From positions 301,196,001 to 301,260,000 of the forward strand of contig OZ024740.1 in the NCBI GenBank assembly GCA_964016885.1: a stretch of 64,000 bases of DNA, written 5' to 3'. A program made the position numbers and the translations under genes. Numbering within the stretch: position 1 is the first letter of the stretch; each line of letters begins with the position of its first letter. Source of the stretch: Eledone cirrhosa (taxonomy: Eukaryota). A model generated the notes under the pieces. The model made no database searches. It was not told the origin of the DNA and saw only the letters and a program-made list of their open reading frames with translations. Of this stretch, positions 15,781 to 58,463 are shown one piece after another.

Positions 15781-15795
15781 ATCAATAAATAAATA

Positions 15796-15839
<44 letters not shown>

Positions 15840-15851
15840 TAATAATAATAA
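15781..15851 (+). repeat. (TAAA)n-(TAA)n tract, left boundary of the retrotransposon array
   Basis: Directly visible. Confidence 0.95.
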
Positions 15852-17940
15852 ATGGCTGTAAGGATCAGCTTCTAGTTAGCAAAATGATACTGGAAGATTC
15901 TCATAATAGACACAAAAATCTATCGATTGCTTTATATAGATTATAAAAAAGCATTCGATAGTTTGCCACACAGTTGGATTGAAAAATGTTTAGAGATTTT
16001 CAAAATATCCCCCGTTGTCAGGAGGTTTTTGTCATTCAGTATGAAGACATGGAAGACGACATTCCTTTTGAATAGTGAAACAAAATCACTGGAAGCTGGA
16101 GAAGTTAATATTAATTGTGGAATTTTTCAGGGTGACTCTTTATCACCGCTTTTATTCTGCATCGCACTTATACCATTAAGTAAAATGTTCAATGAAACAA
16201 AACATGGATATAAAGTCCATGACAAAACCATTAATCACCTGTTCTACATGGATGATCTGAAACTATTTGCAAAAAATGATGAACGATTGCAAAGGCTATT
16301 ATCCACTGTGGAGCAGTTCAGTGATGACATTAATATTGGAGTTTGGACTAGATAAATGCGCCAAAGCAACGTTCACCAGAGGAAAGGTGCTGAAGAGTTC
16401 AGACATTAATCTTGATCGGGAGGACGTGATAAGAGAACTTGATCAAGAAAAAACTTACAAATATCTAGGTGTTTGTGAAGGAGACGGAATCAAGCACTCG
16501 ACAATGAGGGAAAGGATAAGGAAGGAATGTTACCGCAGAGTAAGAGCAATCTTAAGAACGGAATTGAATGCAAGGAATATGATCGATGCCATAAACACGG
16601 TTGCCATACCAGTAGTAACCTACAGTTACAATGTCATCAACTGGTCAAGCACATGAGATCCGTAGGCTCGATACAAAAATTAAAAAATTCTTAACCATGC
16701 ACAGAATGCATCACCCTAAGGCAGATATAGATAGAATATATCTCCCTAGGAAAGAAGGAGGACGTGGGTTAATCCAGTTAGACATTACGTTGAAAACTGC
16801 AACAATTGGATTATCTACATATCTAAGGGAATCACATGATTGGATGATGAAACTCGTTTTGAAACACGAAAGCATCAAAAGATCATATTCCATTACAAAA
16901 GATGCACAAAGATACAGTAATGGACTACAAATTTCAGAAGTCCCATTTACTGCTGAAATGGAAAACACAGAAAAAGCAAAGCAGGTCAAAGTAACTGCAA
17001 AGAAAGAACTGCTACAGAAACTGGCTAAGAAATGGCAAGAAAAGCCTCTGTATGGGAAATATCCAGAGCGAGCTAACAATCCTGATGTTGACAAAACTTT
17101 AACCCATCAGTGGTTGGATCCTCTGGACTGAAATCGGAAACTGAAGGACTGATTATATCAGCACAAGATCAGTGTCTGCCAACAAAAAATTACCAAGCCA
17201 ACATAATAAAAAATGGATGTAGCCCATTATGCCGTGTATGCAAAAAACAACCAGAGACCATTGACCATATAATTTCAATGTGCAGTCCTATAGCTCCAAC
17301 CGAATACCTAAACAGGCATGACAGAGCTGCACAATACATACATTGGATAATGTGTAAGCATTTTGCCCTGCCCCATCAAAAGAATTGGTGGGAGCATCAA
17401 CCACCTCCCATACTTGAAAAAGATCACATCTCAATCTTGTGGAACTTTAGCATCCAAACAGACCGAAAAATAGATGCAAACAGACCTGATATAATATTGA
17501 AGGACTTTAAAAAGAGGGTATGCCTGCTAATTGATATGTCTGTTCCAATAGACAAGAATGTATCTATAAAAACATTTGAAAAATTGAGCAAGTATAAGGA
17601 CCTGGAGATAGAAATTGGAAAAATGTGGAAATTGAGAACTAAAAGAATACTACTGGTTGTAGGCGCTCTGGGAATGATACCTAAGGGGTCTAATGATTAC
17701 TTATCGCAAATCCCAGGAAACCCGCGTATAGGAGAAATACAAAAGATACTACTAATGGGAACTGCCCATATACTAAGGAAGATTCTGTCAATATAAGTAC
17801 ATCACAAGTCTAAACACTAAAGATGCATGTGTGAGTATGTATGTTCTTTCTTGAACATGGCGGACCTTGTTGTCTCTTGAGGTCACTGGTTGTGACTTGG
17901 TGATAACTCGTAAGAACATAAAGCAAGATAAATGCAACTG
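15852..17940 (+). mobile_element. A1: 5'-truncated R4/Dong-clade element, family A
   Basis: Starts at [45 protein letters not shown] and NRPDII..LLIDMSVP..EKLSKY (RLE) present. 3' end ...AAATGCAACTG followed by (TAA)n. Frameshifted. Confidence 0.95.
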
Positions 17941-17984
17941 TAATAATAATAATAATAACAATAATAATAATAATAATAATAATA

Positions 17985-19925
17985 AGAGATTTTCAAAATA
18001 TCCCCCGTTGTCAGGAGGTTTTTGTCATTCAGTATGAAGACATGGAAAACGACACTCCTTTTGAATAGTGAAACAATATTACTCGAAGTTGGAGAAGTTA
18101 ATATTAATTGTGGAATTTTTCAGGGTGACTCTTTATCACCACTTTTATTCTGCATCGCACTTATACCATTAAGTAAAATGCTCAATGAAACAAAACATGG
18201 ATATAGAATCTATGACAAAACCATTAATCACTTGTTCTACATGGATGACCTGAAACTATTTGCAAAAAATGATGAACAATTGCAAGGGCTATTATCTACT
18301 GTGGAGCAGTTCAGTGATGACATTAAAATGGAGTTTGGACTAGATTAATGCGCCAAATCAACGTTCACCAGAGGAAAGCTGCTGAAGAGTTCAGACATTA
18401 ATCTTGATCGGGGGAACGTGATAAGAGAACTTGATCAAGAAAAAACTTACAAATATCTAGGTGTTTGTGAAGGAGACGGAATCAAGCATTCGACAATGAG
18501 GGAAAGGATAAGGAAGGAATGTTACCGCAGAGTAAGAGCAATCTTAAGTACGGAATTGAAAGCAAGGAATATGATCGATGCCATAAACACGCTTGCCATA
18601 CCAGTAGTAACCTACAGTTACAATGTCATCAACTGGTCAAACACAGAGATCCGTAGGCTCGATACAAAAATTCTAAAATTCTTAACCATGCACAGAATGC
18701 ATCACTCTAAGGCAGATATAGATAGAATATATCTCCCTAGGAAAGAAGGAGGACGTGGGTTAGTCCAGTTAGACATTGCGTTGAAAACAATTGGATTATC
18801 TACATATCTAAGGGAATCACATGATTGGATGATGAAACTCGTTTTGAAACACGAAAGCATCAAAAGATCATATTCCATTACAAAAGATGCACAAAGATAC
18901 AGTAATGGACTACACATTTCAGAAGTCCCATTTACTGCTGAAATGGAAAACACAGAAAAAGCAAAGCAGGTAAAAGTAACTGCAAAGAAAGAACTGCTAC
19001 AGAAACTGGCTAAGAAATGGCAAGAAAAGCCTCTGTATGGAAAATACCCTGAACGAGCTAACGATCCTGATATTGACAAAACTTTAACCCATCAGTGGTT
19101 GGATCCTCTGGACTGAAATCGGAAACTGAAGGACTGATTATATCAGCACAAGATCAGTGTCTGCCAACAAAAAATTACCAAGCGAACATAATAAAAAATG
19201 GATGCAGCCCATTATGCCGTGTGTGCAAAAAACAACCAGAGACCATTGACCATATAATTTCAATGTGCAGTCCTATAGCTCCAACCGAATACCTAAACAG
19301 GCATGACAGAGCTGCACAATACATACATTGGATAATGTGTAAGCATTTTGCCCTGCCCCATCAAAAGAATTGGTGGGAGCATCAACCACCTCCCATACTT
19401 GAAAAAGATCACATCTCAATCTTGTGGAACTTTAGCATCCAAACAGACCGAAAAATAGATGCAAACAGACCTGATATAATATTGAAGGACTTTAAAAATA
19501 GGGTATGCCTGCTAATTGATATGTCTGTTCCAATAGACAAGAATGTATCTATAAAATCATTTGAAAAATTGAGCAAGTATAAGGACCTGGAGATAGAAAT
19601 TGGAAAAATGTGGAAATTGAGAACTAAAAGAATACTACTGGTTGTAGGCGCTCTGGGAATGATACCTAAGGGGTCTAATGATTACTTATCGCAAATCCCA
19701 GGAAACCCGCGTATAGGAGAAATACAAAAGATACTACTAATGGGAACTGCCCATATACTAAGGAAGATTCTGTCAATATAAGTACATCACAAGTCTAAAC
19801 ACTAAAGATGCATGTGTGAGTATGTATGTTCTTTCTTGAACATGGCGGACCTTGTTGTCTCTTGAGGTCACTGGTTGTGACTTGGTGATAACTCGTAAGA
19901 ACATAAAGCAAGATAAATGCAACTG
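17985..19925 (+). mobile_element. A2: 5'-truncated Dong family A copy
   Basis: Same motifs as A1; flanked by (TAA)n; internal stop and frameshift. Confidence 0.95.
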
Positions 19926-19969: not shown

Positions 19970-21899
19970 AGAGATTTTCAAAATATCCCCCGTTGTCAGG
20001 AGGTTTTTGTCATTCAGTATGAAGACATGGAAAACGACACTCCTTTTGAATAGTGAAACAATATTACTCGAAGTTGGAGAAGTTAATATTAATTGTGGAA
20101 TTTTTCAGGGTGACTCTTTATCACCACTTTTATTCTGCATCGCACTTATACCATTAAGTAAAATGCTCAATGAAACAAAACATGGATATAGAATCTATGA
20201 CAAAACCATTAATCACTTGTTCTACATGGATGACCTGAAACTATTTGCAAAAAATGATGAACAATTGCAAGGGCTATTATCTACTGTGGAGCAGTTCAGT
20301 GATGACATTAAAATGGAGTTTGGACTAGATTAATGCGCCAAATCAACGTTCACCAGAGGAAAGCTGCTGAAGAGTTCAGACATTAATCTTGATCGGGGGA
20401 ACGTGATAAGAGAACTTGATCAAGAAAAAACTTACAAATATCTAGGTGTTTGTGAAGGAGACGGAATCAAGCATTCGACAATGAGGGAAAGGATAAGGAA
20501 GGAATGTTACCGCAGAGTAAGAGCAATCTTAAGTACGGAATTGAAAGCAAGGAATATGATCGATGCCATAAACACGCTTGCCATACCAGTAGTAACCTAC
20601 AGTTACAATGTCATCAACTGGTCAAACACAGAGATCCGTAGGCTCGATACAAAAATTCTAAAATTCTTAACCATGCACAGAATGCATCACTCTAAGGCAG
20701 ATATAGATAGAATATATCTCCCTAGGAAAGAAGGAGGACGTGGGTTAGTCCAGTTAGACATTGCGTTGAAAACAATTGGATTATCTACATATCTAAGGGA
20801 ATCACATGATTGGATGATGAAACTCGTTTTGAAACACGAAAGCATCAAAAGATCATATTCCATTACAAAAGATGCACAAAGATACAGTAATGGACTACAC
20901 ATTTCAGAAGTCCCATTTACTGCTGAAATGGAAAACACAGAAAAAGCAAAGCAGGTAAAAGTAACTGCAAAGAAAGAACTGCTACAGAAACTGGCTAAGA
21001 AATGGCAAGAAAAGCCTCTGTATGGAAAATACCCTGAACGAGCTAACGATCCTGATATTGACAAAACTTTAACCCATCAGTGGTTGGATCCTCTGGACTG
21101 AAATCGGAGACAGAAGGACTGATTATATCAGCACAAGATCAGTGTCTGCCAACAAAAAATTACCAAGCGAACATAATAAAAAATGGATGCAGCCCATTAT
21201 GCCGTGTGTGCAAAAAACAACCAGAGACCATTGACCATATAATTTCAATGTGCAGTCCTATAGCTCCAACCGAATACCTAAACAGGCATGACAGAGCTGC
21301 ACAATGGATAATGTGTAAGCATTTTGCCCTGCCCCATCAAAAGAATTGGTGGGAGCATCAACCACCTCCCATACTTGAAAAAGATCACATCTCAATCTTG
21401 TAGAACTTTAGCATCCAAACAGACCGAAAAATAGATGCACATAGACCTGATATAATATTGAAGGACTTTAAAAAGAGGGTATGCCTGCTAATTGATATGT
21501 CCGTTCCAATAGAAAAGAATGTATCTATAAAAACATTTGAAAAATTGAGCAAGTATAAGGACCTGGAGATAAAAATTGGAAAAATGTGGAAATTGAGAAC
21601 TAAAAGAATACCAGCGGTTGTGGGCGCTCTGGGAATGATACCTAAGGGGTCTGATGATTACTTATCGCAAATCCCAGGAAACCCGCGTATAGGAGAAATA
21701 CAAAAGATAGTACCAATGGGAACTGCTCATATACTAAGGAAGATTCTGTCAATATAAGTACATCACAAGTCTAAACACTAAAGGTGCATGTTTGAGTATG
21801 TATGATCTTACTTGACATGGCGGACCTTGTTGTCTCTTGAGGTCAATGGTTGTGACTTGGTGATAACTCGTATGAACATAAAGCAAGATAAATGCAACT

Positions 21900-21900
<1 letters not shown>
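19970..21900 (+). mobile_element. A3: 5'-truncated Dong family A copy
   Basis: Same truncation point as A2, offset by 1985 bp; flanked by (TAA)n. Confidence 0.95.
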
Positions 21901-21935: not shown

Positions 21936-21936
<1 letters not shown>

Positions 21937-24900
21937 AGGAACCTGACTGTCAACCAAATACTGCTGATGTTGGAGGAAGGAGAAGAAGGAAAGGGGCCAG
22001 AACCAACTGGACGAAAGAATTGAATAGAACTGTTATGCAATGTTACCTGAAAAGTAACCCCAAGGAGAGGGGCTACAGGAGACGGATGCATAACATCTGG
22101 AACGAGATTGGTTTATTTAAATTAGATGAACAAAAATTGGCCGGGCAGGCTCGGGTAATAAGAACTAATGGATGGATAAGCGAGCTGGAACTGGAGGAAC
22201 TGAGCAGAGAGAATGGCTTGGAGATGGCGGGTGGAGTATGCCAGACAAGCGAGCCAGTGGGAAATGAAGGTGAAGAGGTCCTGAGAACGGAGGAACCACC
22301 CGAAGCAGACAATGATCTGAATACTGAGATAAATAATACCTGGAACAGAGATACGGCCACTGAGGAGATGAATGCTGACGGGCTAGGACAAGATTCGGTT
22401 GACATCCTAAATTTAGTGGTAGATGAATTGAACAATGATAGTGGGAGACCTATGAACCTAAGATTTGTAGACAGGAAAAAGTTAAAAGAAACAACAGCTA
22501 AGGTAAACAAAGTCATCCCATACCTTGAGGCGAGGAGCCTTCACCAGTGCACCAATATCCTCAAAGCAACAGCAAATACGGTGAGGAAACTACTTGGTAT
22601 AAAAGCGAGAGGAAACAACAGACAAGAAAGAGCAGAGCCATGGTGGAAGAAACGACTGTGTGGGCAAATCGGGGAAATGAGAAATGACATAGGAAAGCTT
22701 GAGTCACTACTGAATGGGACACTAAAAAACATAGACACTAAAAATAGACTGGAAATAAAATACAAAACTAGGAGGAAAAAGCTAAATATTATCATAGAGG
22801 AACTGAAGCAACGCATTGTAGCAAAGAGTGCAAAAATCAGGCGATACGAGAACAGAGTCAGTCAGTATAAACAGAACCGCATGTTCGACAACAACCAGAA
22901 GATGCTGTTTGGACAGCTTGAGGGGAAAGAAAGAGGCAACGACTTGATCCCTGGGGCGGAGCAAACTAAAACATTCTGGAGAGGAATATGGGAGCAGGAT
23001 GTTAGACACAATGCCCAGGCAGGGTGGATTGAGACAGTACAGAGGGAGATCGGTGAGCAGGCACAACAACAAACTGATTTGAGTATCACAGTTGAAACTC
23101 TTAAGGGGCAGGCCAAAAAAAAACCAACTGGAAATCACCAGGCCCAGATGGTGTGCAGGGGTATTGGATTAAACATTTAACATCCCTCCACCCGTAGCTG
23201 ACGGCCATGTTCAATGACTGCTTGGTGTCGGGTGAGGTGCCAGAGTGGTTGACAAAAGGTACCACAGTTCTGATAATGAAAAACCGAATCAAGGGTAATG
23301 ATGTTACCAACTATAGACCTATCACATGTCTGTCCGTAATGTGGAAACTGTTGACGAGCATTGTGTCTGAGGAAATCTACCATCACCTCCACACAAACAA
23401 CTTGTTACCGGACGAACAGAAAGGATGCCGAAAGAAGTCACGTGGTACAAAGGACCAGTTGCTTATTGATAAGATGGTAATGGGGAATTGCAGGAGGAGA
23501 CACACTGATCTTGCCATGGGATGGATAGACTACAGAAAGGCATTTGACATGGTGCCTCATTCCTGGATCACCAAAAGCCTGGAGATCTTCAGTGTGGCAG
23601 ATAACATCAGACAGTTGCTAGGCAGGAGTATGGGGTCCTGGGAGACAGAGTTGACATCAACTGCAGTATCCTTGGGAAGCGTGAAGATCAAGAGAGGTAT
23701 CTTCCAGGGAGATAGCCTGTCCCCTCTGTTGTTTGTCCTTGCCCTGATGCCCTTGACCATTATGCTGCGAAAAGTGAGAGCAGGATACAAGTTGGGAAGG
23801 GGAGAGCTTACCATCAATCACCTCCTCTTCATGGACGATCTTAAGCTCTTCGGGAAAAGTGAGAAGGAGTTGGATGTGCTTGTTGACACTGTTCGTATTT
23901 TCAGCAATGATATATGTATGCAGTTTGGTATTAGTAAATGTGGAGTCATTGTGATGAGGAGGGGTAGGTTGAGCAGAAGTGACGGGATCCAGATACCAAC
24001 AGGTGAGATGATAAATGAAATTGACTCTGAGGAAGGATACAAGTATTTGGGCGTTCTGGAGGCTGATGGCATAAAGAACAAAAAAATGAAGGAATTGTTA
24101 AGAACTGAATACATTCGGAGAGTAAGGAGCGTATTGAAGTCACATCTGAACAGCAGAAATGCCATAAGCGCAGTAAATTCCCGAGCTGTGTCTATTATTA
24201 GGTACAGTGCGGGAATTCTGAGATGGAATGTTGCTGAACAAAAAGAAATGGATAGGAAGACTAGGAAGCTATTGACTATCTACAACATGTTCCACAAGAG
24301 GAGTGATGTCGATAGACTCTACCTAAGGAGATCTGAGGGTGGAAGAGGTCTTATCAGCATAGAGGACTGTGTTCAGATGGAGAAAAACAACCTATACAAA
24401 TACGTGACCTATAGTAAGGAGCCAATGCTCAGAACTGTACTGAAGGAGGGGACAGTAGGCCAGGGGATGTCCAAGGAGGAAATAACATCAAGGAGGAAGA
24501 GCAGCCTTAAGGGAAAATCCCTTCATAGTACCTTCTTTGAGAAAACTGAATTTAGAGATCCACAGACATGGAACTGGTTGAGAAGAGGAGACCTCAAAAA
24601 GGCTACAGAAGGAATGCTAATGGCTGCGCAGGAGCAGGCCCTCAAAACGAAGTGGTTGAAGCACCATATCTACAAGGAGGAGGCTAGCCCACTGTGCAGG
24701 ATCTGTGGAGAGAGAGAGGAGACTGTGGCTCACATTGTGTCCGAGTGTAAACACCTAGCCCAAACCCACTATAAGGGCTGGAGACACGATGTGATGGGCA
24801 GGGTGATCCACTGGCACCTGTGCAAAGTAAACAATTTACCACATTCTGAGAAATGGTATGAGCATAGGCCAGAGGCGGTGATGGAGAACAATCAGGTGAA

Positions 24901-25350
24901 GGTGCTGTGGGATTTTAGGATACAGACGGACAAAAAACTGGAACACAATAGACCTGACCTGGTGGTTGTGGACAAAGAAAAAAGATCGTGTCTGATTGTG
25001 GATGTGGCCTGCCCGTTCGACACGAGAGTGCAAGAGAAGGAGAAGGAGAAAATTAACCGATACCAGGACCTAAAATGGGAGGTGAAAAGGATTTGGAACT
25101 GCCATGAAGTCAAAGTGATCCCGATTGTCATAGGCGCACTGGGGACTAACTCCAAAATTTTCCAGGGATGGTTAAAGAAAATCAGCCCCTTCACGCTTTT
25201 TGGAACGCTTCAAAAGGCATGCTTGCTTGGAACAGCAAGAACCCTCCGATACGTCCTGAATATCTGAGGCTGCAGGTAGTGGCTTGATATTCAATCCAAC
25301 GGACTTTCCAGTTAACCAACATCAATGACTGAGATTCAAGGAATAACAAC
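21936..25350 (+). mobile_element. B1: 5'-truncated R4/Dong-clade element, family B
   Basis: ORFs 22020-23180 and 23207-25267 with [66 protein letters not shown]. One frameshift (~23120) and one stop (~23195). Confidence 0.95.
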
Positions 25351-25384
25351 AATAATAATAATAATTATTATTATTATTATTATT
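25351..25384. repeat. (AAT)n|(TTA)n head-on junction, centre of the B1/B2 palindrome
   Basis: gaataacaac aataataataataa|ttattattattattattatt gttgttattc. Confidence 0.95.

Positions 25385-31429: not shown

Positions 31430-31432
<3 letters not shown>
29969..31432 (-). mobile_element. B3: 5'-truncated, diverged family B subfamily copy
   Basis: [39 protein letters not shown], ...RTLRYVLNI. (TTA)n on both sides (29895-29968 and 31433-31460). Confidence 0.93.
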
Positions 31433-31460
<28 letters not shown>

Positions 31461-45722: not shown

Positions 45723-45984
45723 ACTAAAGGTGGAAAACTGGGAGAGGGCACTTGCCTTGGTGGTCAGGGTCATTGTGGCTTTTTACTGGGCTTTCTCCAC
45801 AAATGTCCCTCCGAAGTCTCCCCCCTATTGGGGAATTTTTTTCATTGTTATTTTCATTGTTATTTTTGTTACATCCTCTGTTTTTGTTTTTTTACACGCA
45901 GAAATGCCCATTTGTACCGTCCTGCATTGTCCTGCACTGTCCTAAATGTCTACTTTATGTAAACCCTTGTGGTTAATAAAGAAA

Positions 45985-46053
<69 letters not shown>

Positions 46054-46055
<2 letters not shown>

Positions 46056-47584
46056 GTTGCATTAACTTGCTTTATGTTCATACGAGTTATCACCAAGTCA
46101 CAACCAGTGACCTCAAGAGACAACAAGGTCCGCCATGTTGAAGAAAGAACATACATACTCACACATGCATCTTTAGTGTTTAGACTTGTAATGTACTTAT
46201 ATTGACAGAATCTTCCTTAGTATATGGGCAGATCCCATTAGTACTATCTTTTGTATTTCTCCTATACGCGGGTTTCCTGGGATTTGCGATAAGTAATCAT
46301 TAGACCCCTTAGGTATCATTCCCAGAGCGCCTACAACCACTGGTATTGTTTTAGTTCTCAATTTCCACATTTTCCCAATGTCTATCTCCAGGTTCTTATA
46401 CTTGCTCAATTTTTCAAATGTTTTTATAGATACATTCTTGTCTATTGGAACAGACATATCAATTAGCAGGCATACCCTCTTTTGAAAGTTCTTCAATATT
46501 ATATCAGGTCTATTTGCATCTATTTTTCGGTCTGTTTGGATTCTAAAGTTCCACAAGATTGAGATGTGATCTTTTTCAAGTATGGGAGGTGGTTGATGCT
46601 CCCACCAATTCTTTTGATGGGGCTGGTCAAAATGCTTACACATTATCCAATGTATGTATTGTGCAGCTCTGTCATGCCTGTTTAGGTATTCGGTTGGAGC
46701 TATAGAACTGCACATTGAAATTCAATGTGCAGTCCTATAGCTCCAACCGAATGGTCAATGGTCTCTGGTTTTTTGCATACACGGCATAATGGGCTGCACC
46801 CATTTTTTATTATGTTGGCTTGGTAATTTTTTGTTGGCAGACACTGATCTTGTGCTGATATAACCAGTCCTTCAGTCTCCGATTTCAGTCCAGAGGATGC
46901 CAACCACTGATGGGTTAAAGTTTTGTCAACATCAGGATTGTTAGCTCGCTCTGGGTATTTTCCATACAGAGTCATTTCTTGCCATTTCTTAGCCAGTTTC
47001 TCTAGCAGTTCTTTCTTGGCAGTTACTTTTACCTGCTTTGCTTTTTCTGTGTTTTCCATTTCAGCAGTAAATGGGACTTCTGAAATTTGTAGTCCATTAC
47101 TGTATCTTTGTGCATCTTTTGTAATGGAATATGATCTTTTGATGCTTTCGTGTTTCAAAACGAGTTTCATCATCCAATCATGTGATTCCCTTAGATATGT
47201 AGATAATCCAATTGTTGCAGTTTTCAACGCAATGTCTAACTGGATTAACCCACGTCCTCCTTCTTTCCTAGGGAGATATATTCTATCTATATCTGCCTTA
47301 GGGTGATGCATTCTGTGCATGGTTAAGAATTTTCGAAATTTTGTATCGAGCCTACGGATCTCTGTGCTTGACCAGTTGATGACATTGTAACTGTATGTTA
47401 CTACTGGTATGGCAAGCGTGTTTATGGCATCGATCCTATTCCTTGCATTCAATTCCGTTCTTAAGATTGCTCTTACTCTCCGGTAACATTCCTTCCTTAT
47501 CCTTTCCCTCATTGTCGAGTGCTTGATTCCGTCTCCTTCACAAACACCTAGATATTTGTAAGTTTTTTCTTGATCAAGTTCTCT
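46054..47584 (-). mobile_element. A5: 5'-truncated Dong family A copy
   Basis: RELDQEKTYKYLG to ...RKILSI plus the family A 3'UTR; (TTA)n on both sides. Confidence 0.95.
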
Positions 47585-47602: not shown

Positions 47603-50600
47603 TTGCATTTATCTTGCTTTATGTTTATACGAGTTATCACCAAGTCACAACCAGTGACCTCAAGAGACAACAAGGTCCGCCATGTTCAAGAAAGAACACA
47701 CATATTCACACATGCATCCTTAGTGTTTAGACTTGTGATGTACTTATATTGACAGGATCTTCCTTAGTATACGGGCAGTTCCCATTAGTACTATCTTTTG
47801 TATTTCTCCTATACGCGGGTTTCCTGGGATTTGCGATAAGTAGTCGTTAGACCCCTTAGGTATCATTCCCAGAGCGCCTACAACCACTGGTATTGTTTTA
47901 GTTCTCAATTTCCACATTTTTCCAATTTCTATCTCCAGGTTCTTATACTTGCTCAATTTTTCAAATGTTTTTATAGATACATTCTTGTCTATTGGAATAG
48001 ACATATCAATTAGCAGGCATACCCTCCTTTGAAAGTCCTTCAATATTATATCAGGTCTATTTGCATCTATTTTTCGGTCTGTTTGGATGCTAAAGTTCCA
48101 CAAGTTTGAGATGTGATCTTTTTCAAGTATGGGAGGTGGTTGATGCTCCCACCAATTCTTTTGATGGGGCAGGTCAAAATGCTTACACATTATCCAATGT
48201 ATGTATTGTGCAGCTCTGTCATGCCTGTTTAGGTATTCGGTTGGAGCTATAGGACTGCACATTGAAATTATATGGTCAATGGTCTCTGGTTGTTTTTTGC
48301 ATACACGGCATAATGGGCTGCAACCATTTTTTATTATGTTGGCTTGGTAATTTTTTGTTGGCAAACACTGATCTTGTGCGGATATAATCAGTCCTTCAGT
48401 CTCCGATTTCAGTCCAGAGGATGCCAACCACTGATGGGTTAAAGTTTTGTCAACATCAGGATTGTTAGCTCGCTCTGGGTATTTTCCATACAGAGGCTTT
48501 TCTTGCCATTTCTTAGCCAGTTTCTGTAGCAGTTCATTCTTTGCAGTTACTTTTACCTGCTTTGCTTTTTCTGTGTTTTCCATTTCAGCAGTAAATGGGA
48601 CTTCTGAAATTTGTAGTCCATTACTGTATCTTTGTGCATCTTTTGTAATGGAATATGATCTTTTGGTGCTTTCGTGTTTCAAAACGAGTTTGATCATCCA
48701 ATCATGTGATTCCCTTAGATATGTGGATAATCCAATTGTTGCAGTTTTCAACGCAATGTCTAACTGGATTAACCCACGTCCTCCTTCTTTCCTAGGGAGA
48801 TATATTCTATCTATGTCTGCCTTAGGGTGATGCATTCTGTGCATGGTTAAGAATTTTCGGATTTTTGTATCGAGCCTACGGATCTCTGTGCTTGACCAGT
48901 TGATGACATTGTAACTATAGGTTACTACTGGTATGGCAAGCGTGTTTATGGCATCGATCCTATTCCTTGCATTCAATTCCGTTCTTAAGATTGCTCTGAC
49001 TCTGCGGTAACATTCCTTCCTTATCCTTTCCCTCATTGTCGAGTGCTTGATTCCGTCTCCTTCACAAACACCTAGATATTTGTAAGTTTGTTCTTGATCA
49101 AGCTCTCTTATCACGTTCCCCCGATCAAGATTAATGTCTGAACTCTTCAGCAGCTTTCCTCTGGTGAACGTTGCTTTGGCGCATTTATCCAGTCCAAACT
49201 CCATTTTAATGTCATCACTGAACTGCTTCACAGTGGATAATAGCCCTTGCAATTGTTCATCATTTTTTGCGAATAGTTTCAGGTCATCCATGTAGAACAG
49301 GCAATTAATGGTTTTGTCATAGACTCTATATCCATGTTTTGTTTCATTGAGCATTTTACTTAATGGTATAAGTGCGATGCAGAATAAAAGCGGTGATAAA
49401 GAGTCACCCTGAAAAATTCCACAATTAATGTTAACTTCTCCAGCTTCCAGTGATTTTGTTTCACTATTCAAAAGGAGTGTCGTTCTCCATGTCCTCATAC
49501 TGAATGACAGGAACCTCCTGACAACGGGGGATATTTTGAAAATCTCTAAACATTTTTCAATCCAACTGTGTGGCAAACTATCAAATGCTTTTTTATAATC
49601 TATCCAAGCAATCGATAGATTTTTGTGTCTATTATGACAATCTTCCAGTATCATTTTGTTAACCAGAAGCTGATCCTTACAGCCATATGAGCCTCGTTTA
49701 CACCCTTTCTGCTCAATGGGAAATAGGTCATTTGTTTTCAGGTGGTCATATGTGTATTCAGTTAGGACTGATGTTAAAATTTTATACATTGTGGTCAAGC
49801 AGGTTATCGGTCTGTAATTTTTGGGATTGTTTGTCTCATCATTCTTCGGTAGCAGGAATGTAATGCCGTTAACTAGCCATGATGGTATCTTTTCTGGCTC
49901 CTTAACTACTTCATTGTAAAGTTGGGCTAACAGCTCATGAGACTCTGTGAAGGCATTTATCCAAAAGTATTGTATTTTGTCTTTTCCTGGGGATTTCCAT
50001 TTGCTGGTTTTTCTTAGAGCCAAGCGCAGCTGTTCAACTGTTATATTTTCCCATGTTTGTTCTTCAAGGTGAGCTGTTTCTTTCATTTGTCTGTCTATCC
50101 ATGGGGCATGTATGTTATGAACTTTTTCTTCGGCCCAGATCTTTTCCCAGAATTCTTGCACTTCCTCCTTGGGTGGTATTGATTTAGCAGTTATTGTTGA
50201 CTTACCAATTTTTCTGTAGAAGTTTCTTTGGTTGTTTTTGAACATATTATTGTCCTTATAGAATCTAGATCGTTTTTCAAAGCGCCTTATACGAGCAGCT
50301 TTGGCCGACACTTTTTGCTTGATTGTTTCTATCAGCATGTCTATGTCACATGTTGATCTTATACTGTACTTTTTTTTCAATTTTCTAAGTTTAGTTTGTT
50401 TAACATGTTCACCTACTTTATAGTTTGTTAAAATTTCTATGTCAGATCGGAGAAGGTTTATTTGGCGATTGATGTTATCTTGCCAAGTAGATTTCTTGTG
50501 GGAATTCCTTTGTTTTTTCATCTTCACTCCACATAAGTGAGTGGTGACTTTAGCCGATGCATAATAGAGATGATTTAAGTCAGTAATGTTTATTTTGTTT

Positions 50601-52467
50601 GTGATGATAATGTTTTTGAGAATTATGTTAGTCTTGTGTATTATCTTTTGGTTCTGTTTGGAGTTCTGGATCTTAGGGAGGGTGTCTCGTTCCCCCATGT
50701 CAGATTCTTTCATTTTCATCCATTCGATCATAATTTCATCCTTCAAGTTGGCAAGTTATTCATTTCTTTATCATTTACGATCTCATTATTTTCATTTGGA
50801 GTTTCATCCTGAGCATGCACTCCCTCCACTTTTTCGCTCCTTTCTTTAATTTGTTCTGTTGCCAGTGATTCCGCCCCAACTCTGGGATTCGAAGTGTTAC
50901 AGTTTACCTCGTTTTCACTGACACATGCTTCATTTTCCCTTCGCTGACTTTGTGCTACTAGCTTGATCTGATCAATTTCTATATCAGTTAGTAATTTTTT
51001 TCTTACAATATTTCTTCGTTCATTGGCTAGTTTGTTACTGTCAATATAGCCTCTGTTTTCGGGATGTTTCTTTTTCCAGTTGATATATGTTTGCTCTGTA
51101 TTCGATGTATTTGACGGGTAGTACATGGCAGTGTAGAAAGCCTCAAGGACTTCTTTATTATCTTCCCTTGACCATTTTTCTCTCTTTTTCTTTGGATTTC
51201 TTGGTGGTGAGCATGGAGGGCCAACAGTAGGAGTATTCCGGTTATGGGAGGTCTCCAGCTCCGAAGTGATGGGAAGGTTTGAACCATTAGCTGATTTTTC
51301 GACCCCAGTCTGGTTCCTCTCTGAGGGACGCGGCCCTTTTTTACCCGGGTGACGGCCGATCCGGTATGAGATTTCATCATTAGACATCCACTTTATTTTG
51401 TCGCGTTTTATCCTTATCCGCCAAGGGGTAATCTTTTCGTGTTACCACTTCTAGAACGAGTGTCAACCAAGACTAGAGGGGTCGTTCTACCCTAGAGACA
51501 TGGCTATTCCCCGCCGGCCGCCATCCCGGTATTTCTTGGTCACGGGGTTTTCTTTTTGTTGTTTTTTTTTAAATTGTTATTATCATGAGTGGTTCCTTAA
51601 TGTGAGCATTGCGTGGCTTAAGAATGAAATTATTAATAATTGTCTCCACTCCAGGGACAAGGCCAGCAATCACCCAGTGCATTACAATAATATAATATAC
51701 TTTTTGTTGTAGTTGGCTGTTATTGCTGCTGGCTATGTCGGTGGTGGTGCCGGGGCTTTTTATATTGTTGGTGAGGAAGGGGTGAGCCAGCAGTCCCATA
51801 ATTGTTGATGTAGACGTTTGTCCGTGGCAAGGTCACCAAGTCAATCTATTTATATCTTTTGCTAGCCTCTCTCTTGTCTAGTGCTACCACCACCTTCCCT
51901 TTTCTCTCTCAAGTTAACAGGGGAATAGTGTCAGTAGCATTGAATGAGTGGTGGCGGCGATGATGGATGTGGTGGGGTGGTGGCAGCGGTGGTGTTGTGG
52001 TTACTGATATAGTATCTATGAGTTTGTGTTCGTATGTTTAATATATATTTTCATTATATTTTGTGTTGACATATTCCCGTAAAATTTGAATTAAACATTT
52101 TTTAAAATTTGAGACAATAATAATAGTAATTATTATTATGATGCCGGTGAAGTTGCCGTTGTATTTAGTGTGATGGGATAGGTAGTGTATCAAGTTTCTG
52201 GTGTTGGTGAAATTGAAATTGCCGCTGTTCTATATAGTGTAGACAGAGGGTGTTTTGTTCCATTTATAACCATTTTCTTTTTTTGAATACAAAATATATA
52301 ATACAAAATTGAATATTTGAGCGATATAACAATATAATATGGATCCGAAACTTTATGGGACCTCATTCGGTGCCTTTATGCAACATTTGTGCTAAGAATT
52401 GTTCTTTCACAATTGATTTAAATATGTTAAAAATCAAAAAACTTACGGGAGCAATTTCGTGACGTTC
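47603..52467 (-). mobile_element. A6: essentially full-length Dong family A element
   Basis: ~1.08-kb leader, long ORF and 3'UTR; (TTA)n on both sides. Confidence 0.96.
47744..51387 (-). pseudogene. A6 ORF: myb-like N-terminus, RT (YMDD), CCHC, PD-(D/E)xK restriction-like endonuclease; ~1216 aa once one 7-bp deletion is repaired
   Basis: A 214-aa ORF (51387-50743, KKREKWSREDNKEVLEAFY) and a 1000-aa ORF (50746-47744). Comparison with A4 shows cattctc missing near 50757. Confidence 0.92.
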
Positions 52468-52701
52468 TATTATTATTATTATTATTATTATTGGCGACCT
52501 ACGTAGGAAATCGTATTATCGTGAGCTCCGCAAAGGTTTGTTATTTCCGTTTGTTTAAAAATTGCCATTTATGGAAAATTTTATTGTAAACTGTTTATAA
52601 GCACACATACATTGTTTTCCGAAAAGGACACCCAAAAAGATTGGGGCCTTGTGCCCAAAATTTTAACTTTTATTATTATCCAAAAATTTCTTTGAAAAAA
52701 A

Positions 52702-54699
52702 ATGGCTAATTCCCCTCTGCACGAAGCAGCTGAAAGCCTTCCTCACAAAATAACACCTCACACCGACACCACCATTGTAAATGTTACTACGTTTGCCAAC
52801 ACAAAAAAAAAAATATAAGCAGTAGCAATATTTTAAATTTGTCTCAGGCAGACATTCATTTCCCGCCATTACCAATGACTGCAGGTGTTAAACCCTCCAC
52901 CACCACCACCGCCGCGACAACCACCACCAGCACCACCACCACCACCGCGACAACAGAAACAAAAGAAGAAAAAAATAAATTAACTCGTGACGTCGAAATG
53001 AAATCAAGCAAAATGGACTCTTCCCCACCAAAGACGACTGACGTCACAACCACCACAACTGAAAATAAAATTAATATTAACGATAGCAACAACAACAACA
53101 ATGACATTATAAAACCGACCCTCAGTTTCGCCATCGTAGCAAAACAATTCGAAGCGTTCACGGTAACCCAAGAAGATTTAGAAAATGCCAAACAAATGGT
53201 AAAGAAAGATGGGTACAGGGTCAGCCACCCCCCCCCCCCACACCTAATAAAATGGAGCATCGGCGCCTGTGCACCGTGTCGTATAGAACAATAAATGTAA
53301 CTTCGCGCCGAGTGGAACGGGCATCCGAGTCCCAAATCCAAAAAGCTTTGGGACATGTGTGGGCAAGAAAAACCCATATCCGACGTGGGCAAAAGTATGG
53401 AACCGTGGATGTGCTCTTTGAAACACCAGAGGAGGCTAGAGAACACTCCATGGCCCCATTAAAAAGTGACGACCTCACACTCGTCCCAAGCTATTGTGTC
53501 AGAGACTCGTAAAGATCAGGGTGACCCACGTTCCACCGGCCATCGAAATTCCCTGGCTAATAGCGGCTGTCCTCACCGGCATCGAAGCCAACACGAAAAT
53601 AATAGCAGTAGCAAAAGAAAAGCAGGAAAACTGGTCCGGATCTGGGATGGAGCTCCTGATCCAAGCGGACCAAAAAAGCATTGAGGAGATCCCAGAGGTA
53701 ATATACCTCACTGACGGCAGCCACCTCACGGTAATTGTCGAGGGCAGAAGACCTAGGTGTGTCGTTTGTGGTGAAGGGACCCACCTAAGGGCTTTCTGCC
53801 CTCAGGCTAAAAGGTTGAGGCCACCTCTCCTACCCACCCCAGTGACAAAACCATCAACACCACCAGTAGCAGAGATGGCAGCAACAACTGTAGCAGCAAC
53901 AACAGAAGCAACTATAACAGCAACAACCCCAGCAACAGTAGCAAAACCAACACCACTACCACCACCAGCAAAACCAACACCACCACCACCCAACGCTTCA
54001 GAACTAGCACCAGCGCCTACACCATCCACCACACCACAACCAAAACTAACGGCTGTGGAGGATTTTCCACTCCCCGGCCTATCACAACTGGAGACAGATT
54101 GTGATGACGAGGAGTGGGAAACGATATCCGGAAAAAAAAAAAGAAACCAAAAAAGAAAAAATTCTCTTCCTTCCCCCTCCAAAAACAAAATACAGAGGGA
54201 AACAAATAAACTAAGAAACAAAAAAGTTAGGACAGATATGCCACCATCCACACCAGCATCACCAACCCCATCAACCCAAACACCAACACCATCACCATCA
54301 TCATCCCCAGCACCACCATCACCTACACCACAAAAGTCACCAAAAAGCGAAACAGAAACAAACCCACAACAAACGCAAACAAAACAAAACAACCAAAACG
54401 ATACACACTACACAGCATTAAATTTGAACAACAAGCAATTATTACACTACATCCAACACAACACCAGCATCACAGAAAAAGACTACACAACAACCCCAAA
54501 ATTCACACCACCTCCACACATACAAATCACTCGCATCACACAGAAAACGTACATGACACTAAAACAAAAATTCCCCAAAGACATCGGAGACTTCCGACAA
54601 GCACTCTCCAGGAGGATTTATAAGGACATCCTTCCTGAGTAGGCCACAAGCAGTGAAAAGGATGGAAAAGCCGTCCTTCCCCTACGAGAAGTAAGGTAA
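52702..54699 (+). pseudogene. T3 ORF1, broken by frameshifts and a late TAG (54640-54642)
   Basis: MANSPL..., KYGTVDVLFETPEEA and CVVCGEGTHLRAFC lie in different frames. Confidence 0.85.
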
Positions 54700-54733
54700 G
54701 TGGTCTTTCCCATCTTTTCCACTCCTTTTCAAC

Positions 54734-57700
54734 ATGACCTCACTCAGAATAGGCAGCATAAATGCGCGTGGCTTGGGGTCGTCATGGAAGCAGGGCCACC
54801 TGCTCAACGACCTCAGGTCACTAAACATAGATGTAGTGGCCATCAGCGAGACCAGAATCTCCGAAGCACAGGCTTTCGCACCGATCTTCGGCGGCTACGA
54901 TGTGTACGCATCTCCCAGCCGTCCGGGATCGGGGGGAGGAGTTGCTGTGCTTTATCGGAGAGGTTTGGATCTTGCCATACGGGCCATCTTCCTGGACCCA
55001 GAAGGTAAGTTGGTGGTGCTGGACGTGACCAGCGGAGACGGGCAAGCTTTCAGGTTAGTGGCCGTCTATGCCCCGACAGGAGCAGGGCGGCCTGATTTCT
55101 TCCGGCGTCTGGAGACCTTTCTTGGAACGTCCCGCTCTTTAGTGTTAGTGGGCGACTGGAACGGGATCTTAGATGCACGCTGGGATTGTGTGGGATTAGT
55201 GGATAGGGAAGGAGGGTGCAAGAGTCTCACCAACCTGCTCAGACGTTTTGAACTGTCTGACAGGTACCGAATGGATTTCCCGAATGTACCAATGTGGACT
55301 TGGACAAATCGCATAGGGTCATCCAGATCATATCTAGATAGAGTATTTTGTAGGGAAATAGATAGGTCTAGCATAGGCTGTCCACAATTCAAGATAGTCA
55401 GCTACACGGACCACAAATTCGTGATCTGTGTGCTTGACTTAGATAGGCTTCATAGACGAGGACCCGGCTACTGGAAGCTAAACGCGTCCTTACCAGCGCG
55501 CAAGGCCTACAGAGACCGGATTAGCGAACTAGTTAAGCGGGCGTTGACGGGGGCCATCGTCAACAACAAGTGGTGGTTTGCTCTGAAAAGAGCAATTAGA
55601 ATAGAGTCCATTAGGTTTAGTAAGACTTTAGCAATAGAGAAAAATAGAGCAGAGGGAGAATTAGTTAGAAAATTAGATGAGGCGCTTAGCAAAGGCATCG
55701 CGACCGACGTACTTGCGGCGAAATTGGCCCTTGACCAATTCTTCAATGCAAAGCACGAAGGCTGCGTTGTCAGAGCTAGGGTGCGTGCTCTCAGACACGA
55801 GGGGACGAAAGCCGTTGAATGGGCCCGAGTGGCGGAGGCGCGTCGTGGCAACAAGGCCACGATCGGGTCTTTGGTGGACCACGACGGGCGCATGCTACTC
55901 GATCCCGGGCAAATGTGTGAAGCTTTTCAGCGACACTTCGCTCAACTGTTCGGGGGCAGTGGCGGGCCGGATCGAGGGATGGACTTTAGTGTCTACCTCG
56001 ACGGACTGCCGCGGCTTTCGGCCACTGAGGCGGAGTGTTGCGAAAAGCCGATAACAACCGCTGAAGTACGGGATGCAATGACTAGTTGCACAAGGGGTAA
56101 ATCGCCTGGTTTGGATGGTCTGCCCTATGAACTTTACGTACAAATGCCAAACTTGTTCGGAGGCCTCTTGGCGGACGTCTACTGCAACTGGCAACAGAAC
56201 GGGAGAATTCCCAGCTCTGTGAGCCGAGGAGCGGTGGCGCTGCTGAGAAAGGATCCGAACAAGGGGGATAACATAGATAATTTTAGGCCCATAACTCTGC
56301 TAAACACAGAGTTCAAGATTTTGGCCAAGGTGCTAGCAAAGAGGTTGGCGCTTGTCGTTGGTGGTCTGGTGGGAGAGGCACAGACATGCGCCATTCCCGA
56401 CAGATCCATCCACGACAACCTCCACCTCATGCGATACATCGTAGAGAGGGTAGCTAGGGAACCTGGCACGGGTGGGTCTTTGATCAATTTAGATCAGTCG
56501 AAAGCCTTCGATAGGGTCGACCATCGTTACCTAGCGGCAGTCCTGAGGGCGGCTAGCTTTGGGCCCGTCTTCAGAGGCTGGATCGCTGCCATGCACAGCG
56601 ACATCTGCTCTGTAGTGAGAGTGAACGGTCACCTTTCGGAACCGTTCAACATCATGCGCTCGGTCCGCCAAGGATGTCCCCTCTCGTCCCTATTGTACGT
56701 ATTGACTCTCGAGCCATTACTGCACAAGCTGGAGACGTTGAGGGGGGTCCCGCGCGAACTAGGATGCGGAAGATCCGTGTCAGCATATGCCGACGATGTC
56801 ACCGTAGTGGTGTCGAACGCCAAACACATCGAGGCGATCGGCACTACACTAAGAGAATACGAAGCGGTGACAGGAGCAATGATCAACCAGGAAAAGTCAG
56901 TGGGCCTGCAGCTCGGCACCTGGAGAGGCAGGTCCATGCCGTCCAACAGCGTCGTCGGGCGCTGGACGGACGGACCGGTTAAATTGCTAGGGGTCTGGTT
57001 CGGTCCAGACCTCCAGACGGACAAAAACTGGGACGAGGTGACGAGCAGGGTGGCTTCTCTCACCCAGAAATGGGCCGAGAGGAAGCTATCCCTAAAAGGT
57101 CGAGCGGAGGTGGCGAATGCGTACATCGCATCCATCATCTACTACCGCCTGACCGTCGTACCTTGTCCTAAGCCCCGCCTGACTGCGCTGGAGCGTTTGC
57201 TCTTTCGCTTCTTGTGGAAGGGACGCGCTCCGATGGTCAGGCGGTCCATCTGCTGTCAACACCCGCTACGTGGATGGCTGGGCATGCCGTGGCTGATGAT
57301 GCACAGACACGCGCTCAGGCTACGACATCTCCACCTCTTCCTCGACGGTGATCAGGTGTGGTCGCCGTTTGCAAGACACGTTTTTCCCCAGCTCGTCTCC
57401 TTGACGGAGCTGCAGTCCTGGGTCAAGCGAAGACCGAGAGGGAGCGCTTGGAGACTGGAATGTCTTCAGGCGCTCACAGCCCTCGACCAATCGGGCAATG
57501 TGATCGGTGGAAACTCCACCTTGGCGTTCTATAGGGGATTAGTGGAGGGGAAGAGCGACGACGTACTTGGAGAAACTCTAGGCGTCGACGAAAATCAACT
57601 AGCCAATCTCTTCGGAAGGACTTTCGGGCCGGGGCCTATGGACAACTTCCAGAAATCCCTGGCCTGGCAGTGCTACCGAGGAGCTTTGCCAGTTCGGGAT

Positions 57701-58153
57701 AAACTCTACAGGCATGGAGGTGCCGTCAGCCGGGCATGTCCGAGATGCGCGCAGGGCGACGAAACCGTCCTGCACGCACTCGTCCAGTGTCCGAGCATTG
57801 CTGACTTGTGGGTTTATGTCGAACACCTGCTGTCACGTGTAGGACGGATCCGGCTATCAGCTGAGTCCATCGTGAGGATTGCCCCACCCCCTTCCTTTAG
57901 CCTGGAAGGGCAGGCAGTTTTTATCTGTCTGGTGGCCATGGCGAAAGAGATAGTATGGTGGACACGTTTGAAAGGGCTGAAGACGAGCACTTACCTCTTC
58001 GGTGATGCCCTGATTAACTTTTTCAAATTTCATTTGAAAAGGAAAATCAGGGTAGAGAGGGAAGTGCTCTCTTCCCAGCATTTTGTTGAAAGATGGGTGA
58101 GAGAAGCAAGTATGGCCCGAATGAATGGGCCTTCTCTGAGTATGTGTCTGTAA
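54734..58153 (+). CDS. T3 ORF2: intact 1139-aa APE endonuclease-reverse transcriptase (L1/Tx1 clade)
   Basis: SINARG, AISET, VYAP, GDWN, SYLDR, TDH (APE); KSPGLDG, RPITLLN, KAFDRV, RQGCPLS, YADD (RT); CPRC..ETVLHALVQC. Confidence 0.96.
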   Translation: MTSLRIGSINARGLGSSWKQGHLLNDLRSLNIDVVAISETRISEAQAFAPIFGGYDVYASPSRPGSGGGVAVLYRRGLDLAIRAIFLDPEGKLVVLDVTSGDGQAFRLVAVYAPTGAGRPDFFRRLETFLGTSRSLVLVGDWNGILDARWDCVGLVDREGGCKSLTNLLRRFELSDRYRMDFPNVPMWTWTNRIGSSRSYLDRVFCREIDRSSIGCPQFKIVSYTDHKFVICVLDLDRLHRRGPGYWKLNASLPARKAYRDRISELVKRALTGAIVNNKWWFALKRAIRIESIRFSKTLAIEKNRAEGELVRKLDEALSKGIATDVLAAKLALDQFFNAKHEGCVVRARVRALRHEGTKAVEWARVAEARRGNKATIGSLVDHDGRMLLDPGQMCEAFQRHFAQLFGGSGGPDRGMDFSVYLDGLPRLSATEAECCEKPITTAEVRDAMTSCTRGKSPGLDGLPYELYVQMPNLFGGLLADVYCNWQQNGRIPSSVSRGAVALLRKDPNKGDNIDNFRPITLLNTEFKILAKVLAKRLALVVGGLVGEAQTCAIPDRSIHDNLHLMRYIVERVAREPGTGGSLINLDQSKAFDRVDHRYLAAVLRAASFGPVFRGWIAAMHSDICSVVRVNGHLSEPFNIMRSVRQGCPLSSLLYVLTLEPLLHKLETLRGVPRELGCGRSVSAYADDVTVVVSNAKHIEAIGTTLREYEAVTGAMINQEKSVGLQLGTWRGRSMPSNSVVGRWTDGPVKLLGVWFGPDLQTDKNWDEVTSRVASLTQKWAERKLSLKGRAEVANAYIASIIYYRLTVVPCPKPRLTALERLLFRFLWKGRAPMVRRSICCQHPLRGWLGMPWLMMHRHALRLRHLHLFLDGDQVWSPFARHVFPQLVSLTELQSWVKRRPRGSAWRLECLQALTALDQSGNVIGGNSTLAFYRGLVEGKSDDVLGETLGVDENQLANLFGRTFGPGPMDNFQKSLAWQCYRGALPVRDKLYRHGGAVSRACPRCAQGDETVLHALVQCPSIADLWVYVEHLLSRVGRIRLSAESIVRIAPPPSFSLEGQAVFICLVAMAKEIVWWTRLKGLKTSTYLFGDALINFFKFHLKRKIRVEREVLSSQHFVERWVREASMARMNGPSLSMCL

Positions 58154-58395
58154 ATTAAAGGTGGAAAACTGGGAGAGGGCACTTGCCCTGGTGGTCAGGG
58201 CCACTGTGGTCTTTTAATGGGCTTTCTCCACAAATGTCCCTTGGAAGTCTCCCCCCTATTGGGGAATTTTTCTTTGTTATTTTATTTCAACCTCTGTTTT
58301 TTTACACGCAGAAATGCCCATTTATACCGTCCTGTATTGTCCTGTACTGTCCTTAATGTCTACTTTATGTGAACCCTTGTGGTTAATAAAGAAAA

Positions 58396-58463
<68 letters not shown>

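What the first reader, a model, noticed from the sequence alone, without database searches (positions are those of the whole stretch)
15781..58460. 42.7-kb retrotransposon array: two endonuclease chemistries converge on (TAA)n with opposite orientation rules
Seen: 12 copies (A1-3, B1-3, T1, A4, T2, A5, A6, T3) lie end to end with only TAA/TTA tracts between them, apart from one deletion junction; none interrupts another's body. Every intact Dong junction has (TAA)n on the element's sense strand and every intact Tx1 junction has (TTA)n on its sense strand, at 5' as well as 3' ends. Known: Dong targets (TAA)n, and some Tx1-clade families are microsatellite-specific. Inference: T1-T3 are a (TTA)n-specific APE family. 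Each insertion leaves target sequence on both sides, so the array is self-perpetuating and shared by at least three families.
Basis: partly seen in the sequence, partly recalled or inferred. Interest (0 to 1): 0.75.

Follow-up and report, generated by a model that had tools for sequence, protein, structure and literature searches.

The report
Two retrotransposon classes sharing one microsatellite
Twelve copies of two unrelated kinds of jumping gene sit end to end in runs of the repeat TAA/TTA, each kind always facing its own way, likely because their different cutting enzymes nick opposite strands of the same repeat; repeat-seeking is a known habit, but this pairing, and a front end that one kind appears to have borrowed from the other, were not found in the papers searched.

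Summary
Observation confirmed, with corrections. Twelve LINE copies fill 42,135 of 42,680 bp; 12 of 13 boundaries are TAA/TTA tracts and one is a microhomology deletion. All 17 intact Dong-like ends carry (TAA)n on the sense strand; all 5 intact Tx1-like ends carry (ATT)n. Three tracts lie head-to-head and cannot be tails, so the Tx1-like family targets the repeat at this locus.

Corrections:
- A2 is an unequal-crossover hybrid of A3 and A1, not an insertion.
- Tract polarity flips at the B1/B2 palindrome.
- T2 carries a different 5' half from T1/T3.

New here: full-length Dong-like copies of two families (41% protein identity) share a 5' leader that weakly resembles the Tx1-like leaders, suggesting promoter capture.

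Genome-wide flanks, the empty site, spanning reads and enzyme specificity remain untested. Dong on (TAA)n, microsatellite-targeting Tx1, and opposite-direction sharing of one repeat (SART/TRAS) are known. An (ATT)n Tx1, and sharing between RLE and APE enzymes, were not found in my searches. This scan already noted three similar arrays on other DNA of the same genome. New variant of a known kind; interest 0.45.

The parts
15767..15851 (+). Left compound tract: degenerate TTA units, AATAAATAAATAAA, then (TAA)13 CAA (TAA)4
15852..17940 (+). A1, 5'-truncated Dong-like copy of family A
   Evidence: RVT_1 hit
17986..19925 (+). A2, hybrid of A3 (5' part) and A1 (3' part and tail); product of unequal crossover, not an insertion
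   Evidence: 51 columns like A3, 32 like A1, 2 private, of 85 variable
19971..21900 (+). A3, 5'-truncated family A copy
21936..25343 (+). B1, 5'-truncated Dong-like copy of family B (ORF part P0003 with CCHC and RLE motifs)
25344..25389 (.). Tail-to-tail tract with the polarity switch (TAA)4|(TTA)6 at 25364/25365; centre of the B1/B2 palindrome
25390..29894 (-). B2, full-length family B copy, ORF broken; 98% identical to B1
29560..29894 (-). B2 leader shared with A4/A6 (77-78% over about 330 bp); weakly collinear with T leaders
29970..31434 (-). B3, 5'-truncated family B copy, 88% identical to B1/B2
31435..31460 (+). Head-to-head tract (TTA)8TT between B3 and T1
31461..37008 (+). T1, Tx1-like copy with intact 5' end; 3' end lost in a deletion
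37005..37009 (.). Deletion junction T1|A4 with AATG microhomology
37009..39957 (-). A4, family A copy with full 5' front end; 3' 2 kb lost
39958..39983 (+). Head-to-head tract (TTA)8TT between A4 and T2
39985..45986 (+). T2, full-length Tx1-like copy; ORF2 and 3' UTR 95.5% identical to T3, 5' UTR and ORF1 from a different lineage
45987..46054 (+). Tail-to-tail (ATT)22 tract shared by T2 and A5
46055..47583 (-). A5, 5'-truncated family A copy; 4-nt microhomology to the tract at its 5' break
47604..52469 (-). A6, near full-length family A copy: 1-kb front end, N-terminal helical domain, one frame break, then a 1003-aa RT-CCHC-RLE frame (P0001)
52470..52492 (+). Head-to-head tract (TTA)7TT between A6 and T3
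52493..58396 (+). T3, full-length Tx1-like copy; ORF1 frameshifted, ORF2 open (54695-58153) with APE, RT, zf-RVT; AATAAA 6 nt before the tract
58397..58465 (+). T3 3' tract (ATT)n joining host DNA

Best explanation
The array is a pile-up of Dong-like (RLE) and Tx1-like (APE) LINE copies in one compound (TAA)n/(TTA)n microsatellite, each class in a fixed orientation, likely because the Dong-like enzymes start by nicking the T-rich strand and the Tx1-like enzyme the A-rich strand. Shown: anatomy, orientation rule, three separate T insertions into tracts, domain content. Inferred from target-primed reverse transcription: the first nick is on the strand opposite the element's sense strand. The T junction register, (ATT)n|element|(ATT)n in 3 of 3 heads and 2 of 2 tails, would put both T nicks at TpA steps. 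The AATAAA 6 nt before the tract would leave a few AUU units on the T RNA, able to pair with the nicked primer. Every insertion leaves tract on both sides, so new landing sites appear for both classes. The array was then remodelled by unequal crossover (A2, shown) and a microhomology deletion (T1|A4, shown). The polarity flip at B1/B2 most likely reflects a pre-existing (TAA)n(TTA)n site or a local inversion (unresolved).
For: 17 of 17 and 5 of 5 intact ends follow the rule. Three head-to-head tracts cannot be tails. Tracts are 1.3% of the array and absent from 21,290 flanking bp; two further T copies landing in tracts by chance is about 0.013 squared (my arithmetic). T1, T2 and T3 have different left neighbours and junctions. 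Catalytic motifs are present; best PDB matches are R2 for A6 and L1 ORF2 for T3. A relative of family A from another animal has (AAT)12 on its sense strand at the 5' junction (L081). Literature (passages): Dong targets (TAA)n in insects, molluscs and cnidarians (PMC7998251); Tx1-clade Kibi, Koshi and crocodilian families target microsatellites (PMC4494074); the endonuclease is the main determinant for SART1/TRAS1 (PMC7265360).
Against: One locus and three T copies only. No whole genome was held, and laying reads on T3 gave no usable junction data because the tool skips repeat tracts. None of 80 distant Tx1-like relatives in metagenomes had a TAA/TTA tract of 4 or more units, though most are under 35% identical and many lack their ends. 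Of three near-complete Dong relatives in one contaminated assembly, L083 has no TAA tract at its 3' end. The polarity switch needs an extra assumption. No biochemistry.
Confidence: 0.7

Rival explanations
1. The T endonuclease is not repeat-specific. T lands in the tracts because AUU units at its RNA 3' end anneal to any free (AAT)n 3' end, including the second-strand nick made by a Dong-like enzyme.
For: AATAAA lies 6 nt before the tract in T2 and T3, so the RNA would end in AUU units. All three T heads abut a Dong head. RNA-target annealing helps SART1 priming (PMC7265360, passages).
Against: Under the orientation rule, three of three Dong neighbours is expected about 18% of the time by chance (my arithmetic, 10 of 56 orders). 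A 23-26 bp tract lies between the heads, where joint priming would leave none. The T 5' register is the same in 3 of 3.
Confidence: 0.15
2. T carries (ATT)n at both ends of its own RNA and creates the tracts; Dong-like copies colonise them, and recombination, not targeting, brought three T copies together.
For: The three head-to-head tracts are nearly equal in length (26, 26, 23 bp). Recombination has acted in this array (A2).
Against: T1, T2 and T3 are 92-96% identical, have different neighbours, and T2 has a different 5' half, so they are not segmental duplicates. No host DNA lies between them.
Confidence: 0.07
3. The array, or its left arm (A1-B1), is a mis-assembly that joins separate loci through repeats.
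For: A perfect 6.8-kb palindrome and two identical A junctions are typical trouble spots; no spanning read was seen (no listed piece spans even T3).
Against: B1 and B2 differ by 45 substitutions and 7 indels including a 17-bp deletion, unlike copies of one molecule. A2 has a patchy crossover zone and 2 private changes. Other windows of this genome were noted to hold similar arrays (unchecked notes). A mis-join would not undo the junction rule in the right arm.
Confidence: 0.08

Closest known systems
Dong (R4 clade; Bombyx Dong, DongAg, DongBg, Darwinula Dong)
   Same: One ORF with RT and C-terminal CCHC plus RLE; (TAA)n target, with TAA on the sense strand upstream of the 5' end (primer in PMC3774820; target in PMC3812793 and PMC7998251; passages seen).
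   Different: Families A and B carry about 1 kb of extra front end with a shared leader; no HDV-like ribozyme was found at the 5' junction by my uncalibrated search; they share the tract with an APE element.
Microsatellite-targeting Tx1 families: Kibi (TC)n, Koshi (TTC)n, crocodilian (TTCC)n/(TTTC)n
   Same: Two-ORF APE-RT-zinc-finger LINE inserted in a microsatellite (PMC4494074, passages; its supplements and figure 3 could not be seen).
   Different: Target is (ATT)n, not listed in the passages read; host is apparently an invertebrate; it shares the target with an RLE element.
SART1Bm and TRAS1Bm in (TTAGG)n
   Same: Two LINE families insert into one repeat in opposite directions (PMC7265360, passages).
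   Different: Both of those are R1-clade APE elements (clade assignment recalled) and telomeric; here the partners use unrelated nucleases (RLE and APE) on an interstitial trinucleotide repeat.
Dong-R4 and L1-Tx1 LINEs of Octopus vulgaris
   Same: Both classes are reported recently active: 5 families with 1129 insertions and 13 families with 421 insertions (PMC13282606, passages).
   Different: The word 'target' does not occur in that paper's main text; whether this window is from an octopus was not tested here.

Membership tests
Dong / R4 clade (families A, B) | RT followed by CCHC and a PD..D..K restriction-like endonuclease, no APE | tested here: met
   RVT_1 and no Exo_endo_phos in A/B frames; motifs in P0001 and P0003; all 5 PDB matches are R2 proteins
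Dong / R4 clade (families A, B) | (TAA)n on the sense strand at both ends | tested here: met
   17 of 17 intact ends
Dong / R4 clade (families A, B) | N-terminal diverged SANT/Myb-like domain (PMC7998251) | tested here: inconclusive
   Confident four-helix model of A6 residues (pLDDT 89.5); best Z 6.1; Zeste Z 5.2 (rmsd 3.0, 67 aligned), NgTRF 4.9, ISWI SANT 4.7, R2 4.7, all below the tool's trust level
Dong / R4 clade (families A, B) | HDV-like ribozyme at the 5' junction (PMC3774820) | tested here: inconclusive
   0 hits in A4, A6 and B2 5' regions with my own pattern, which had no positive control; no ribozyme among 125 Rfam matches
Dong / R4 clade (families A, B) | RT phylogeny with named Dong/R4 elements | not testable with these tools
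   No named Dong or R4 sequence among the 120 listed of 1596 homologues
Tx1 clade (T1-T3) | Two ORFs; ORF2 with APE, RT and C-terminal zinc finger | tested here: met
   Exo_endo_phos, RVT_1 and zf-RVT on T3 ORF2; motifs; L1 ORF2 best PDB match; the only TE-named hit of 10 is a 'Transposon TX1' protein at 31%
Tx1 clade (T1-T3) | RT phylogeny with Tx1L, Kibi, Koshi | not testable with these tools
   No such reference sequences were returned
Microsatellite-specific Tx1 family | Target in more than 20% of genomic flanks (criterion in PMC4494074) | tested here: inconclusive
   3 of 3 copies in this window; other genomic copies not seen
SART/TRAS pair | Same repeat, opposite directions | tested here: met
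SART/TRAS pair | Both partners APE-type and on telomeric repeats | tested here: not met
   A/B carry RLE motifs; the repeat is (TAA)n with host DNA on both sides

The most novel reading that the evidence does not exclude
Shared-target arrays are swap-meets for unrelated LINEs: two Dong-like families captured a Tx1-type promoter and leader from their array neighbours, so an RLE and an APE machinery share a target, its two strands and a transcription module, and the Tx1-like enzyme is a new A-strand-specific (AAT)n nickase.
Probability: 0.3. Interest if true: 0.65.

Novelty: new variant of a known kind. Interest (0 to 1): 0.45.

Why it matters
It offers a natural side-by-side test of how two unrelated nuclease folds read opposite strands of one three-base repeat, with an in-frame APE (T3) and RLE (A6) to assay. 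It shows a way in which tens of kilobases of mixed LINE arrays can grow without hitting genes, and then recombine. If the leader capture holds, co-residence in such arrays is a route for module exchange between distant LINE clades. The principle of repeat targeting is not new, which caps the score.

Tried and rejected
1. Whole genome: none held, so other copies and the empty site could not be read.
2. Sequencing runs: 20 of 24 listed runs hold T3 words, none on record as RNA (no RNA holder listed). Four runs were laid on T3 and each covered 30 of 30 bins. The tool skips tracts, so junctions were not visible. The largest loose end in the RAD run (55737) and the read ends at 52411 fall on AATT sites, with reads starting at GCATGC sites; I read these as library ligation products and dropped them. 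A closer read-based look at the T 5' junction was not obtained.
3. Relatives with flanks: none from P0002 in metagenomes, none in viral contigs; 80 distant loci without TAA/TTA tracts.
4. RNA: no match reached an Rfam cut-off and no ribozyme family was listed; no tRNA; HDV-like pattern 0 hits.
5. RNA-editing scars: A>G excess not significant in 9 of 10 copies; B3 p=0.049 uncorrected. Rejected.
6. Segmental duplication of a Dong-T unit: rejected, because neighbours and 5' halves differ.
7. B1/B2 as a same-molecule fold-back artefact: disfavoured by the difference spectrum.
8. Front end as a decayed Tx1 ORF1: only low-complexity matches; not shown.
9. Fold search of the A6 N-terminal domain: no clear match.
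10. Earlier notes by sequence or relatives: nothing returned.
11. Literature: nine searches returned no (ATT)n-targeting Tx1 and no RLE/APE pair on one microsatellite. Repbase and Kojima and Fujiwara 2004 were not available; the latter is known to me only through citing papers.

Full report
Observation. Self-comparison and junction print-outs recover the twelve copies in the order given: A1, A2, A3, B1 on the + strand; B2, B3 on -; T1 +; A4 -; T2 +; A5, A6 -; T3 +. Elements cover 42,135 of 42,680 bp; the other 545 bp are tracts. Twelve of 13 boundaries are TAA/TTA tracts. The thirteenth (T1|A4) is a deletion joined at AATG, which both parents carry at that point. All 17 intact A/B ends have (TAA)n on their sense strand and all 5 intact T ends have (ATT)n. 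No such tract of four or more units occurs in the 21,290 bp outside the array.

What the elements are. A and B are single-ORF RLE LINEs: RVT_1 without an APE domain, CCHC, RHD and PD..D..K motifs, and R2 proteins as the only five PDB matches. They are only 41% identical in protein. The A6 N-terminal segment folds confidently into four helices; its fold matches include several Myb/SANT domains but at Z 4-6, which is inconclusive. T copies have two ORFs; T3 ORF2 is open and has APE, RT and zf-RVT, with L1 ORF2 the best PDB match and a 'Transposon TX1' protein the only TE-named homologue among 10. No named Dong, Kibi or Koshi sequence was available, so clade membership rests on architecture and target, not on a tree. 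The organism was not tested. Earlier scan notes call it octopus-like, and Dong-R4 and L1-Tx1 are reported recently active in Octopus vulgaris (PMC13282606, passages).

Does T target the tract? Three tracts lie between two 5' ends (B3|T1, A4|T2, A6|T3), so they are not 3' tails. T1 abuts a truncated B, T3 abuts A6, and T2 has a different 5' UTR and ORF1 lineage, so these are separate insertions. Tracts are 1.3% of the array; if one T founded it, two more landing in tracts by chance is about 0.013 squared (my arithmetic). The register is constant...ATT|G at 3 of 3 heads and C|ATT at 2 of 2 tails. At this locus, targeting is therefore well supported. Genome-wide it is untested. No genome was held; four runs cover T3 in 30 of 30 bins but the tool skips tracts; 80 distant relatives had no TAA/TTA tract, most being under 35% identical. 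For the Dong side, a relative from another animal (L081, found in a prokaryote assembly) has (AAT)12 on the sense strand at its 5' junction and short TAA runs at 3' ends; L082 is similar, and L083 lacks a 3' tract.

Mechanism. By established target-primed reverse transcription, the first nick is on the strand opposite the element's sense strand. Dong-like copies would therefore start on the T-rich strand and T on the A-rich strand (inference). The T register would place both nicks at TpA. A generic L1-type preference, nicking the T-rich strand (recalled), would give the opposite orientation, so T's polarity needs its own explanation: an adapted endonuclease, AUU pairing, or both. AATAAA sits 6 nt before the tract in T2 and T3, so a few AUU units would be on the RNA (inference). 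For SART1/TRAS1 the endonuclease is the main determinant and short RNA-target pairing assists (PMC7265360, passages). Each insertion leaves tract on both sides, which keeps the site open to both classes.

A2 is not an insertion. Of 85 variable columns among A1-A3, A2 equals A3 at 51 and A1 at 32 and has 2 private changes; the first 48 are all A3-like, the last 30 informative ones all A1-like, with a patchy zone between. It has A3's 5' break and A1's (TAA)6CAA(TAA)8 tail. This is unequal crossover between A1 and A3, so there are at most 11 insertions. The tract also changes polarity at 25364/25365, the centre of a tail-to-tail B1/B2 palindrome. B1 and B2 differ by 27 transitions, 18 transversions and 7 indels, which argues against a same-molecule artefact. 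A pre-existing (TAA)n(TTA)n site, an inversion of the left arm, or a fold-back duplication all remain possible.

An unreported feature. A4, A6 and B2 begin with about 1 kb that precedes the long ORF. The first 300-330 bp are 77-78% identical between A and B although their proteins share 41%, so the leader was exchanged recently (inference). All six full-length 5' ends (three Dong-like, three T) have a 196-222 nt AT-rich leader ending in an A-run and ATGG(C/T)TA. With that anchor and the 20 nt before it removed, Dong leaders still align to T leaders at z 2.9-5.2 (0-4 of 1000 shuffles reach the score, six pairs), at least as well as T3 to T2 (z 2.4). The relative L081, which has a tRNA-like head by eye, does not (z -1.5 and 0.5). 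With the A-run kept, none of 264-318 composition-matched window pieces reached the score. The signal is weak and in AT-rich DNA, and no ORF1 core was found behind it. Capture of a Tx1-type promoter is my preferred reading; a separate short element or convergent promoters are alternatives.

Comparison with what is known. Dong on (TAA)n is established (PMC3812793, PMC7998251, PMC3774820; passages). Tx1-clade families on (TC)n, (TTC)n, (TTCC)n and (TTTC)n are described (PMC4494074, passages; supplements not readable). Opposite-direction use of one repeat is known for SART1/TRAS1 (PMC7265360). PMC4640811, PMC5035012, PMC9115989 and PMC8967140 (passages) gave background only. Nine searches showed no (ATT)n Tx1 and no RLE/APE pair on one microsatellite. 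Repbase was not searchable and may hold such a family. Three earlier notes of this scan describe 18-, 18.5- and 32-kb arrays of this kind elsewhere in the same genome; I could not check them, and they are not independent support.

Verdict. A real, clean and large example of a shared-target LINE array: a new variant of known habits. Confidence in the best explanation 0.70; interest 0.45.

Noticed in passing
window 1-4345 (+): A fourth Tx1-like copy outside the array, 66-69% identical to T1-T3, ends in AATAAA followed by a degenerate (TATC)n/(TGTC)n run instead of (ATT)n: same group, apparently a different microsatellite.
   Followed up: partly
window 31435-31460, 39958-39983, 52470-52492: The three head-to-head tracts are nearly the same length (26, 26, 23 bp) while tail-bearing tracts run from about 18 to 74 bp; may reflect a fixed duplication length or footprint.
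   Followed up: no
window 15798-15851 and 17941-17985: Both tracts flanking A1 carry one CAA interruption, which could be a target-site duplication of 15 bp or more.
   Followed up: no
window 38860-38965 (-), A4 and A6, and L081:905-960: Just upstream of the Dong ORF, family A and the distant relative L081 share, by eye, a CCCG..CCGGG..TGG..GGGG..AA.GACCCC pattern: a candidate conserved RNA element marking the true Dong core.
   Followed up: no
L081:551-650: The Dong relative begins with a tRNA-like head (judged by eye), suggesting that Dong 5' modules are exchangeable.
   Followed up: partly
window 39549-39578 and 52114-52143: A short TAA/TTA quasi-palindrome starts a roughly 130-bp AT-rich block present in the A front end and not alignable in B2's.
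   Followed up: no
window 59265-59901: A 640-bp inverted repeat (85%) with a CTGATGA...GAAA hammerhead-like core on each arm, next to (TA)n.
   Followed up: no
window 8094-9051: GC-rich tandem array with a 173-bp period, about 4 copies.
   Followed up: no
L081-L083, L087, L088: Animal-type Dong relatives lie in contigs of a bacterial assembly, pointing to host contamination of that record.
   Followed up: no
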